Positions 9,001 to 12,000 of a DNA stretch of 24,110 bases are shown one piece after another (the stretch's first letter is position 1; every line of letters begins with the position of its first letter). This DNA comes from a virus (lineage: Duplodnaviria; Heunggongvirae; Uroviricota; Caudoviricetes), in the IMG/VR virus record IMGVR_UViG_2534681831_000037, one strand, 5' to 3'. Position numbers: made by a program.

Positions 9001-12000
9001 TTGGGCCATCCATGTACTTTCCGTACTCTTCCGTTAACAACGTGAAGTAATCCCCAGCCAGGTGGTAAATCCTCAATTGAAATAGTTCCCGGCTCACTAA
9101 TAAAGAATCGCCAGTCGCCCATTCCAAGAGACGGATTTTTACGAAAACGCTTTTTTCTATCTGCCAACAAGTCAGCACGAGAACATTTCGCCTCTATCAG
9201 GCATGATGCTGAATTTCTGAATCCCATAGCATCTGGCTGTTCTCCGGTACTGGTTACAGCTATAAAGCGGTCATGAAAACAAACCTTGAACCCGTTGCGC
9301 TTAAGGAACTTGTATGCAATCTGACAGAGTTCGCTGTGTGTTAACGCCATATCACTCTCCTTTGATGCGAATGCCAGCAAGCCAGTTTCTTATGCCGATA
9401 TATTCAGCGTTCCTGAAACCGCTTTTTACATATATAAATGGCAAGCGAAGATTGTGACCATTGACTGCCAGGTAGTCTTTACAACCCTGTTCGGTGAAAC
9501 AGCAGGTAACGAATTCATCAATATCTTTCACAGCAACGCGCCGCCATTTTTCTGGTGGCTCTCGAAAGTTTTCATGAAGTAGCTCGAGACGACGACTATG
9601 GCGTTTATTGGCTTCATTGCCATCTTCGTCAACCCAGACAATCCGGTCATGGTCATAATCAGCATCAACAACGATTTCGCGCTTTTGATACACACAAAAC
9701 ATGGGATCTGACGTTATTCGATTGTCCTGTGTTCGAATATTTTCACCGATGATGCCAAACGAATCTGGTGCAGATTTTGTCTGCATCTCTTCGATACGTT
9801 CAGCCATCGCAGCACACTCTTCAAAGTTGCTTAATGCTTTTCGCTCCCATTCGGCGCATTGTTTTTCCAGTTCTGCTATGCGCTTACTTCCATCCGCGAT
9901 TACTCCCTCGTAATATTCACGCTGCTCGTTGAGTTTTGATTTTACTGCTTCAAGCTCAACGCGCAGCTTCCCTACCGTAAGCGCAATATCCTCGTTCTCC
10001 TGGTCGCGGCGTTTGATGTATTGCTGGTTTCTTTCCCGTTCATCCAGAAGCGCCAGCGCAACATTTGGATTAAAGGCAGCAATAAATTCAGCGTTTGCGT
10101 AAGCCTGAGCATCTGTTTCAACCAGGCAGTTAACATGACATTCTGCAATCACGCCACCGGGTTCTCCTTTCCATTTTTGACAAACAAAAACTCCTGTTAT
10201 ATTCCCATGCTGATTGCCCGATGTATGCCCTACGATGTAGCATCCTTTAGTTGCTTTCTCTGCTGCTTCACGCAGCGCCTGATAGTCAATCTCGCTCATT
10301 CATCGCCCCACTCATCACAATATGCTTCGACCGCAGTTTTCCCTGCTTCATAATCATCACGCCATGCTTCAGCATCAGCGGCACTTCCACCGCGTAACTC
10401 TGCATAATCCATTAACAGTTCATGCCATTCTTCAAAACTGGTGTTATATTTAGTTGAACCAAAATCAGCCATTTTATTCTTCCTCTTCGCCTTTTATTTC
10501 GTGGTATGAGTAATTGCAGTAGTTAAAGAAAATATCTTTAGCTTCATCCTGTATTTCATCTGGTGTCGCATCATCATCCACTTCAAATACGTCCTCAAAA
10601 TCGCCACCAGCTATTCCCGTCTCGATAATTATTTTAAATTTTCGCATTTCACTACCGCCCTGCCGGTCGGCCTCCTTATGTTCTGATGGTGCAGGAATTC
10701 CTCCGGTTAAGGATTAAATTTTATTTACAGAACTGAATTTAATTATTCAGATATACGTATCTGTAACCTTACGAACCTATTCACTGGATGCCTATTTCAT
10801 AAAAATAATCCAGTGGGTTTTATCGTTCTTGCCGGTGCGCTGGCTGATGATTGGTTTCGCGTCGGTTAGTGCCAATATCTGGCGGGCAGGTATTTGCGTT
10901 TCATTCCATTTAAAAATCAGAACGCCGCGTGGGCACAACACACGAAAGGCTTCTTTAAATCCCTGCCGCAAATCATCTCGCCAGGTATCTTTATTCAGCC
11001 GTCCATATTTCTTTCCCATCCAGGCGTTATCACCAACACGCTCAAGATGCGGAGGGTCGAATACAACAACCGGAAACGATGCGTCTGCAAATGGTAATGC
11101 TCGAAAATCTGCTATCAGGTCAGGACTGATAATCAGGCGTCGTCCATCACACAATGTGTGCTCTTCTTTTCTGATATCGCTAAATATCGCCCGTTCGTCA
11201 TTCTTATCAAACCAGAACATGCGACTGCCACAGCACATGTCGAGAATGGTAGCCGACTCACTCACAACATCACCTCCTGAAAATTACCCTGATAAAACGC
11301 CAGCACACGCTGCATAACCTTGCTTTTCCGGCACTCGCGACAGATTATGTTCTGGCGCCTGTCGTAGCGGCGTATCTCTCCGTCTGGTAATGACCAGATA
11401 AGGTCAGGATCAACCACAACCGGTTTCTTCACCTTTGCCCTTGATAGTTTTTTGCGGGCGTTTTGCCAGTCTTTACGCGCCTGCTCAGACGGGAATAATC
11501 CGTAGTCTGAATTGTAAACATCACCACTGGCGACCAATTCTCTGGCGAGAGTGCTTATGTAATACCTTGATGCACCTGTCTTAGCTTCCAGTTGTCGTAA
11601 CGTCTCGCGCCCACTCTGGCGCACGAGCTCAACAACCTCCCCCTTAATTTTTTCCCGCTCTTCTTGTGTAAATACTTTTGCCATAAGCGCCTCCGGCAAT
11701 CACTTTTCCGATGCAACATGGCGGGAAGAATCAGTAATCTGTCGTACAATATCCCTGTGCTTGTTCAACTCACGCAGCGCGGCGCAGACACGCTCCCACT
11801 TCTGGACATGATTTTTCGCCCGACGCAGTTCGCGGTTTGCCAAATGCAGCGATGGCAAAATCAAATCATCAGATCGCGTTTCAGTGAACGATGGTAGTAA
11901 CTGCACAATGTCCCCCACAGTATCTGTTTTAATTTCTTCCTGTGTTGCCGCTTCCCGGACTGGTAACGCAGCACCTGCTGGCTGAGGAAAGGCCTTACCA

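What the first reader, a model, noticed from the sequence alone, without database searches (positions are those of the whole stretch)
10792..11265. Very small orphan methyltransferase in the early operon
This 157-aa protein has motif I (DMCCGSR) followed by DPPH and no adjacent restriction endonuclease. Orphan phage methyltransferases protect against host restriction or act in epigenetic regulation. The GTG start overlaps the upstream stop and has a strong AGGAGG SD. The small size leaves little room for a target-recognition domain, so the substrate could be DNA or RNA.
Basis: partly seen in the sequence, partly recalled or inferred. Interest (0 to 1): 0.45.

Follow-up and report, generated by a model that had tools for sequence, protein, structure and literature searches.

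The report
Minimal orphan phage methyltransferase, substrate untested
This is a real, intact 157-residue prophage methyltransferase consisting of only the catalytic core; it belongs to a large, already catalogued phage family whose target, probably phage DNA but possibly RNA, has never been tested.

Summary
ORF 10792-11265 (minus strand) encodes 157 aa. Its GTG start overlaps the upstream stop (GTGA), and AGGAGG lies 7 nt upstream. Motif I (DMCCGSR) is at residues 9-15 and DPPH at residues 70-73.

The protein is identical to RefSeq WP_000004203.1. The gene lies in the early-right operon of a Rac-like lambdoid prophage, after the replication genes and a Ren-like gene. It is found in about 1,000 of 5,426 complete E. 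coli genomes.

It matches PHROG 954 and PADLOC "MTase_II/oMTase". It does not belong to PF05869 Dam, RsmD, MT-A70 or Trm11. The family occurs in phages of Proteobacteria, Firmicutes, Actinobacteria and Bacteroidota at 45-65% identity. It always lies in the replication/recombination module, and about a quarter of loci have a canonical DNA methyltransferase nearby.

Best reading: a stand-alone amino-methyltransferase made on induction that methylates phage DNA with little specificity, as an anti-restriction measure. An RNA target is a serious rival, because the nearest amino-methyltransferase structures are m2G RNA enzymes. I found no experimental test of any member. This is an ordinary kind of feature, with modest interest.

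The parts
10792..11265 (-). CDS of the 157-aa minimal class I SAM-dependent amino-methyltransferase (identical to WP_000004203.1)
11273..11278 (-). Shine-Dalgarno AGGAGG, 7 nt upstream of the GTG start
   Evidence: read directly
11262..11265 (-). GTGA start/stop overlap with the upstream Ren-like gene (translational coupling inferred)
11221..11247 (-). Motif I, residues 7-15 (ILDMCCGSR), the SAM-binding loop after strand 1. D9 is invariant; C12 and G13 are conserved in at least 90% of sequences.
11170..11190 (-). Motif II, residues 26-32 (AIFSDIR). The invariant D30 at the end of strand 2 is the expected ligand of the SAM ribose; R32 is also invariant.
11047..11067 (-). Motif IV, residues 67-73 (VVFDPPH), the catalytic loop of amino-methyltransferases. 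It is invariant in the alignment and present in 256 of 268 family proteins.
11262..11699 (-). Upstream gene in the same operon: DUF977, a Ren-like winged-helix protein of 145 aa. It is not a conserved partner (9 of 82 loci).

Best explanation
The gene encodes a stand-alone, minimal SAM-dependent amino-methyltransferase. It has a seven-stranded class I core, motif order I to IV (gamma-like), an invariant DPPH catalytic loop and no target-recognition domain. It sits at the ren/nin junction of the early-right operon of a Rac-like lambdoid prophage. It should therefore be silent in the lysogen and made, coupled to the Ren-like gene, when the prophage is induced. The most likely activity is methylation of an exocyclic base amino group, N6 of adenine being the first guess, in replicating phage DNA. 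With no recognition domain it would have little or no sequence specificity, and the progeny DNA would gain broad protection from host restriction. Shown here: the gene is real and intact, the fold and motifs are present, the gene is solitary, and its operon position is as stated. Inferred: enzymatic activity, DNA as the substrate, adenine as the base, low specificity and the anti-restriction role.

For: The context concerns DNA. Across 290 non-redundant loci the commonest neighbours within 3 kb on the same strand include C5 DNA methylase PF00145 (54 loci, 14 directly adjacent), replication protein O (42), SSB (42), DnaC-like loader (29), N6_N4 DNA methylase (24, 10 adjacent) and RusA (22). In ZF40, Nymphadora and a Porphyromonas phage the adjacent gene is a C5 DNA methylase.

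There is precedent for tiny phage DNA methyltransferases in the same genomic slot. PamA (141 aa, PF05869), encoded just after the replication genes of S. aureus mosaic phi11, methylates GATC. PF05869-type PhiOS31_p25 methylates adenine with relaxed specificity. M.EcoGII is a non-specific prophage enzyme that is silent in the lysogen.

Other support: database curators file the family with DNA methyltransferases (PHROG 954; PADLOC MTase_II and oMTase). The median pI is 8.7, with conserved basic residues. The family is phage-borne and almost absent from plasmids (61 of 72,556 records).
Against: I found no tested member: no methylome, no assay, and no paper that mentions DPPH as motif IV. The database names are annotation, not experiment.

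Conservation of 45-65% identity across four phyla would also fit a universal RNA target. Some phages carry this gene together with a PF05869 methyltransferase (LoVEphage; Morganella IME1369_02). That argues against a redundant non-specific adenine DNA activity. A phage MT-A70 enzyme annotated as a DNA adenine methyltransferase has been reported to prefer 16S rRNA.
Confidence: 0.45

Rival explanations
1. It is an RNA methyltransferase. It makes m2G or m6A at a universally conserved site in rRNA or tRNA, acting on the assembled ribosome or the folded tRNA as RsmD does without an extra RNA-binding domain. This would adjust or protect the host translation apparatus during lytic growth.
For: The closest amino-methyltransferase structures are Trm11, TrmN/Trm14, RsmC and TrmM. 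Trm11, Bud23, the archaeal rRNA m4(2)C synthase and KMT9 rank high by Foldseek. The weak PDB profile hits include the RsmD-like HI0767 and Trm11. The gamma motif order and a His in motif IV are also seen in TrmN. Cross-phylum conservation is very high with no variable recognition element. There is a reported precedent for a phage rRNA methyltransferase that had been annotated as a DNA enzyme.
Against: There is no THUMP or other RNA-binding module and no Trm112-like partner gene nearby. The gene is always in the DNA replication/recombination module and is often beside true DNA methyltransferases. All structural similarities are to the generic core, with TM about 0.5-0.6 and 13-23% identity. The literature states that the motif IV sequence does not predict the substrate.
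Confidence: 0.25
2. It is the catalytic subunit of a sequence-specific DNA methyltransferase. Recognition would come from a separate DNA-binding protein, here the translationally coupled winged-helix DUF977, or from oligomerisation.
For: DUF977 overlaps the methyltransferase start by 4 nt and has helix-turn-helix character. The same layout is seen in phage PA8, where a small MT-A70 methyltransferase is preceded, with a 4-nt overlap, by a 143-aa HTH-like subunit reported to confer specificity.
Against: DUF977 precedes the gene in only 9 of 82 enterobacterial loci, and no neighbour is universal across 290 loci. DUF977 and PNB-2 share no detectable similarity. DUF977 occupies the position of lambda Ren and matches the Ren-like PHROG 142, so synteny alone explains the adjacency.
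Confidence: 0.1
3. It methylates neither DNA nor RNA polymers. Its substrate would be a small molecule or a protein: a free nucleotide, a nucleotide immune signal with an adenine amino group, or a glutamine side chain as for HemK/Mtq2. It would act as a counter-defence or metabolic enzyme.
For: Its very small size and lack of any nucleic-acid-binding domain fit a small substrate. The top overall structural neighbours are small-molecule or unassigned methyltransferases (PH0226, PmtA, BH2331). The best NCBIfam hit, though weak, is an Mtq2/HemK-like model (E 0.004). A Porphyromonas phage has an 'acr candidate' two genes downstream.
Against: An invariant (D/N)PP-aromatic loop is typical of enzymes that act on bases or on glutamine in macromolecules. 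There is no recurrent neighbour from any known immune-evasion family. The idea is pure inference.
Confidence: 0.1

Closest known systems
PHROG 954 / PADLOC PDLC03288 (MTase_II) and PDLC03730 (oMTase): catalogued but uncharacterised phage 'DNA methyltransferase' family
   Same: The protein is a full-length member, at E 1e-85 and 1e-71. The ~150-aa core and motifs are the same in phages of Streptococcus, Vibrio, Acinetobacter, Porphyromonas, Listeria, Gordonia and others.
   Different: Nothing differs; this is the family it belongs to. The family names are annotations without any experiment that I could find.
PF05869 phage 'Dam' mini-methyltransferases (S. aureus PamA, 141 aa, GATC; PhiOS31_p25, relaxed adenine specificity)
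   Same: Both are orphan phage enzymes of 140-170 aa without a recognition domain. Both are encoded just after the replication genes and are silent in the lysogen. This is the best model for how the enzyme may work.
   Different: No homology is detectable: there is no Pfam hit, BLASTP gives E 0.19 over the motif IV region only, and hhalign gives 0.4% probability. Only ~25 residues separate the LDPC motif from NPPY in PamA, against ~60 here. PamA has NPPY/DPPY rather than DPPH. The two families co-occur in some phages.
M.EcoGII (and Hia5): non-specific adenine DNA methyltransferases of prophages
   Same: Both are prophage-borne orphan enzymes that are not expressed in the lysogen and are proposed to give blanket anti-restriction protection.
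   Different: M.EcoGII has 349 aa and belongs to the beta class (IV before I). Hia5 has 281 aa, is Dam-like (homologous to M.EcoKDam and M1.DpnII) and has a divergent recognition region. Both have DPPY. Neither is related in sequence to this protein.
RNA m2G methyltransferases of gamma type (Trm11, TrmN/Trm14, RsmC, RsmD)
   Different: Trm11, Trm14 and TrmN carry a THUMP domain, and Trm11 also uses Trm112; neither is present here. No Pfam or NCBIfam model of these families reaches threshold. Identity is 13-20%.
M.ECPA8_3172P-PNB-2 of Stx2 phage PA8 (reported 16S rRNA methyltransferase)
   Same: It is a small STEC-prophage methyltransferase without a recognition domain, annotated as a DNA adenine enzyme. 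The 4-nt overlap with an upstream HTH-like gene has the same layout as DUF977 and the methyltransferase here.
   Different: It belongs to the MT-A70 family PF05063 and is unrelated (BLASTP E 19). It lies in the early-left region. It is said to be restricted to Stx phages, whereas this family is widespread.

Membership tests
Class I (Rossmann-fold) SAM-dependent methyltransferases | Seven-stranded beta-sheet core fold | tested here: met
Class I (Rossmann-fold) SAM-dependent methyltransferases | Glycine-rich motif I after strand 1 and an acidic residue at the end of strand 2 | tested here: met
   D9-x-C-C-G13-S-R follows strand 7-11, and the invariant D30 ends strand 26-30. Pfam Methyltransf_11 is only just above its cut-off (21.7 against 21.2 bits).
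Amino-methyltransferases (N6-A, N4-C, N2-G, Gln) | Motif IV (D/N/S)-P-P-(Y/F/W/H) after strand 4 | tested here: met
   D70-P-P-H73 is invariant and present in 256 of 268 family proteins. His is an accepted fourth residue.
Gamma-class DNA amino-methyltransferases (e.g. M.TaqI) | Motif order I to IV followed by a C-terminal target-recognition domain | tested here: not met
   The motif order is met, but there is no recognition domain. The chain ends with strand 7 at residue 156. Extensions in relatives are unrelated to each other and have no Pfam domain.
PF05869 phage Dam | Match to the family profile | tested here: not met
   There is no hit at E<=1. hhalign against 81 PF05869 sequences gives 0.4% probability. 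PamA itself matches PF05869 at 5.6e-30.
RsmD-like (PF03602) | Match to the family profile | tested here: not met
   There is no Pfam hit at E<=1. The only signal is a weak PDB profile hit to HI0767 over motif IV (E 0.16).
Trm11 / TRM11 family | N-terminal THUMP domain plus a gamma-type catalytic domain | tested here: not met
MT-A70 (PF05063) | Match to the family profile, or similarity to the phage PA8 enzyme | tested here: not met
   There is no Pfam hit, and BLASTP against AKI86170.1 gives E 19.
PHROG 954 / PADLOC MTase_II PDLC03288 | Full-length match to the family profile | tested here: met
   E 1.3e-85 over residues 3-157, and E 1.1e-71 over residues 6-157.
Type II restriction-modification system | A cognate restriction endonuclease gene next to the methyltransferase | tested here: not met
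   No endonuclease is annotated in 22 kb. The neighbours are DUF977, DUF1627, DUF7167, Ead/Ea22 and genes of unknown function. No nuclease family recurs across 290 loci apart from RusA.
DNA methyltransferase (functional class) | Demonstrated methylation of DNA by the protein or a close relative | not testable with these tools
   No publication on any member was found. A methylome or an enzyme assay is needed.

The most novel reading that the evidence does not exclude
The family may not be a DNA-protecting methyltransferase at all. It could be a universal phage enzyme that methylates a conserved host RNA site (rRNA or tRNA m2G/m6A) or a nucleotide-based immune signal. That would explain three things: it needs no recognition domain, it stays 45-65% identical across phages of four phyla, and it coexists with ordinary DNA methyltransferases in the same phage.
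Probability: 0.3. Interest if true: 0.7.

Novelty: new member of a known kind. Interest (0 to 1): 0.3.

Why it matters
About one in five complete E. coli genomes, and phages of at least four bacterial phyla, carry this 150-aa enzyme, yet I found no test of its substrate. If it is a non-specific DNA methyltransferase, it would be among the smallest known. It would be a third, independent 'mini' family alongside PF05869 and MT-A70. It could then be useful as a compact footprinting or anti-restriction tool, as M.EcoGII and Hia5 are. If it acts on RNA or on a signalling nucleotide, it would be a widespread and overlooked host-takeover or counter-defence function. A single expression experiment with LC-MS would settle the question either way.

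Tried and rejected
1. M.EcoGII/M.EcoGI and Hia5/Hin1523 as relatives: rejected. They are larger Dam-like or beta-class enzymes with DPPY.

2. PhiOS31_p25/PhiARM81ld_p56, non-specific adenine methyltransferases with a homologue in Morganella phage IME1369_02: rejected. That homologue is ARM67989.1, a different gene from the family member ARM68010.1 in the same phage.

3. S. aureus PamA (141 aa, NPPY at 64-67), which looked like the same architecture: it is PF05869 and not detectably related.

4. The Stx-phage rRNA methyltransferase M.ECPA8_3172P: it is MT-A70 and unrelated. Its partner PNB-2 is unrelated to DUF977.

5. E. coli K-12 YfdM, which I recalled as a possible fragment of this family: no similarity.

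6. An N-terminal extra domain, suggested by PHROG 954 positions 1-49 and by many 200-240-aa representatives: the 38 extensions share no similarity with each other, so they are probably mis-called starts or fusions. The long forms carry no Pfam domain.

7. DUF977 as an obligate partner: it is upstream in only 9 of 82 loci.

8. Relationship to beta-class N6_N4 methyltransferases: only the 8-residue motif I aligns.

9. Conjugative-plasmid leading-region role, as for M.EcoGIX: the gene is almost absent from plasmids.

10. Promoter, terminator and composition scans around the gene show nothing notable.

11. The afdb50 fold library was unavailable, and Murphy et al. 2013 on phage orphan methyltransferases is not held.

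12. Literature searches by accession, PHROG id, DUF977, 'TRM11 family methyltransferase' and 'DPPH + motif IV' found nothing on this family.

Full report
**Observation**

The ORF lies at 10792..11265 on the minus strand and encodes 157 aa. Read on the minus strand, the sequence is ...CAGGAGGTGATGTTGTGAGTGAG.... The GTG start at 11265 overlaps the TGA stop of the upstream ORF 11262..11699, giving GTGA. AGGAGG at 11278-11273 precedes the start by 7 nt. The protein begins MSESATILDMCCGSR, with motif I at residues 9-15, and contains VVFDPPH at residues 67-73. RefSeq calls the same CDS as WP_000004203.1, 'class I SAM-dependent methyltransferase', in STEC strains that are 100% identical over the gene.

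**Setting**

The annotated twin region in strain 95NR1 shows a Rac-like lambdoid prophage. On the opposite strand it carries racR, kil, a RecE-like nuclease, RecT, ralR and an excisionase. On the strand of the finding the gene order is as follows:
- an HTH protein and YdaT
- an O-like initiator
- a DnaC/IstB-like loader
- DUF1627
- DUF977 (PHROG 142, 'Ren-like')
- the methyltransferase
- DUF7167
- an Ead/Ea22-like gene, followed by the nin-type genes

The gene is therefore at the ren/nin junction of the early-right operon. It should be repressed in the lysogen. No other methyltransferase and no restriction endonuclease is annotated or detected in about 22 kb, so it is solitary. The gene is found by megablast in 1,008 of 5,426 complete E. 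coli genomes, with up to five copies per genome.

**What the protein is**

Pfam gives only a borderline Methyltransf_11 hit (21.7 against 21.2 bits). There is no PF05869, RsmD or MT-A70 hit. NCBIfam gives nothing above threshold. PHROG 954 ('DNA methyltransferase') matches at 1e-85. PADLOC models MTase_II (PDLC03288) and oMTase (PDLC03730) match at 1e-71 and 6e-48.

The family is large and widely spread:
- 7,824 homologues at 90% clustering.
- 2,026 clusters at 50% identity.
- 254 phage genomes from hosts including Streptococcus, Vibrio, Acinetobacter, Porphyromonas, Listeria, Gordonia, Lactobacillus, Enterococcus and Staphylococcus. Identity to the E. coli protein is 45-65%.
- Only 61 of 72,556 plasmid records carry it, mostly non-mobilizable replicons.

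An alignment of 29 diverse cores has 55% mean column identity. It has 19 invariant residues: D9, D30, R32, P48, F64, V67, D70, P71, P72, H73, Y87, G88, L90, E105, R108, L110, G114, W120 and P138. DPPH is present in 256 of the 268 retrieved proteins.

Many cluster representatives are 200-300 aa long. Their N-terminal extensions share no similarity with one another, and the long forms contain no additional Pfam domain. The functional unit is the ~150-aa core.

**Structure**

AlphaFold2 run on that alignment gives pLDDT 94.5 and pTM 0.89. The model has the strand order expected for a class I methyltransferase. It has unusually few helices in the first half, and a beta-hairpin stands where helix B usually is.

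His as the fourth residue of motif IV is documented. T. thermophilus TrmN has N260PPH, and its His263 is modelled stacking on the target guanine. The literature also warns that the exact motif does not predict the substrate.

**Context across phages**

I collected 290 non-redundant loci from IMG/VR and GenBank phages. I then clustered the same-strand ORFs within 3 kb and annotated the largest clusters. The number of loci containing each neighbour family is:

| Neighbour family | Loci | Directly adjacent |
|---|---|---|
| YopX | 63 | 7 |
| C5 DNA methylase (PF00145) | 54 | 14 |
| DUF1642 | 47 | – |
| Replication protein O | 42 | – |
| SSB | 42 | 11 |
| dATP/dGTP pyrophosphohydrolase | 31 | 8 |
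| DnaC-like loader | 29 | – |
| Lambda P | 24 | – |
| N6_N4 DNA methylase | 24 | 10 |
| RusA | 22 | – |

No neighbour is universal. DUF977 precedes the gene in only 9 of 82 enterobacterial loci. In Pectobacterium phage ZF40, Gordonia phage Nymphadora and a Porphyromonas phage the adjacent gene is a C5 DNA methylase. In Bacteroides LoVEphage the gene lies between an N6_N4 fragment and a PF05869 gene. The family is thus a stand-alone enzyme of the DNA replication/recombination module. About a quarter of loci have a canonical DNA methyltransferase nearby.

**Comparison with characterised enzymes**

Several leads were checked and are not the same family:
- M.EcoGII is a 349-aa beta-class enzyme.
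- Hia5 has 281 aa and is Dam-like.
- The relaxed-specificity PhiOS31_p25 corresponds to a different gene in Morganella phage IME1369_02.
- The Stx-phage enzyme M.ECPA8_3172P, reported to methylate 16S rRNA with its partner PNB-2, is MT-A70 and unrelated.
- E. coli YfdM is unrelated.

S. aureus PamA is the closest analogue in form. It has 141 aa, NPPY at residues 64-67, and is encoded just after the replication genes of mosaic phi11. It has been shown to methylate GATC. However, it is PF05869. BLASTP finds only the motif IV region (E 0.19), and a profile-profile comparison of 274 sequences of this family with 81 PF05869 sequences is null (0.4% probability). Only the 8-residue motif I aligns with beta-class N6_N4 enzymes.

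Phages therefore have at least three unrelated 'mini' methyltransferase families without a recognition domain: PF05869, MT-A70 and this one. Members of the first two have been tested and this one has not, as far as I could find.

**Mechanism**

The following is shown:
- The gene is intact, conserved and translationally coupled to the upstream gene.
- The class I fold is confidently predicted.
- All SAM-binding and catalytic motifs are invariant.
- There is no recognition domain and no conserved partner.
- The gene is in the early lytic operon.

The rest is inferred. On induction the enzyme would bind SAM through D9, G13, D30 and D49/D53. It would methylate an exocyclic amino group presented to the DPPH loop.

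I favour DNA as the substrate, with N6-adenine the most likely target and low specificity, at 0.45. The reasons are the genomic context, the precedents in the same genomic slot and the basic character of the protein (median pI 8.7).

The RNA alternative is rated 0.25. It rests on the structural neighbours, on the unusual cross-phylum conservation, and on co-occurrence with PF05869 enzymes in the same phage. The PA8 precedent also supports it.

A partner-dependent sequence-specific DNA enzyme is rated 0.1, and a small-molecule or protein substrate is also rated 0.1.

**Verdict**

It is a member of an already catalogued phage family whose kind, the orphan phage methyltransferase, is well known. 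The only open and mildly interesting point is the untested substrate of a very widespread minimal enzyme. Interest is 0.3.

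Noticed in passing
window 8835-9380 (-): This intact 181-aa ORF (TTG start) has no Pfam match and falls in PHROGs 9263 and 631, both of unknown function. By eye it has a PD...E-x-K-like signature (PDAMGF...LIEAKCS), which suggests a PD-(D/E)XK nuclease. In strain 95NR1 the equivalent stretch is annotated as frameshifted or partial pseudogenes. It lies 1.4 kb downstream of the methyltransferase in the same operon.
   Followed up: partly
window 1564-1815 (-): There are three phage tRNA genes, Arg(tct), Arg(tcg) and a CAT-anticodon tRNA, next to the HTH-domain gene at window 1851-2558. ARAGORN calls the third Met, and RefSeq calls it Ile.
   Followed up: no
P0011, P0062, P0089 (248 aa; Leclercia, Citrobacter, Klebsiella): A recurrent variant of the methyltransferase carries a conserved C-terminal extension of about 90 aa (…RIVELESLLLVD…HHQRRLKHHINRMWLEKMP…). 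This is either a fused downstream gene or an accessory domain. It has no Pfam match.
   Followed up: partly
L003 2418-4468; L004 3992-6618; L087 2495-4479: The small methyltransferase is directly adjacent to a large C5-cytosine DNA methylase (PF00145) in phages of Actinobacteria, Proteobacteria and Bacteroidota. In all, 54 of 290 loci have such a gene within 3 kb. This may be a recurrent 'methylation island' or a functional pairing.
   Followed up: partly
L086 721-3727 (Bacteroides LoVEphage): Three small methyltransferase genes from three unrelated families lie within 3 kb: a PF01555 fragment of 132 aa, this family at 168 aa, and PF05869 at 163 aa. A tRNA-splicing-ligase-like gene follows.
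   Followed up: no
L330 2228-3282 (Escherichia phage PA8): The MT-A70 methyltransferase gene and the gene of its HTH-like partner PNB-2 overlap by 4 nt. This is the same layout as DUF977 and the methyltransferase in the window, although neither pair of proteins is related.
   Followed up: yes
window 10648-10791: A 144-bp AT-rich spacer (about 37% GC) lies between the methyltransferase stop and the next gene. It contains the near-perfect palindrome CTGAATAATTAAATTCAG at 10733-10750. It is not a canonical terminator and may be a mosaic joint.
   Followed up: no
L013 1358-1930 and 30 other loci: A dATP/dGTP pyrophosphohydrolase gene (PF04447) is a frequent neighbour of the methyltransferase in enterobacterial phages, and is directly adjacent in 8 loci.
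   Followed up: no
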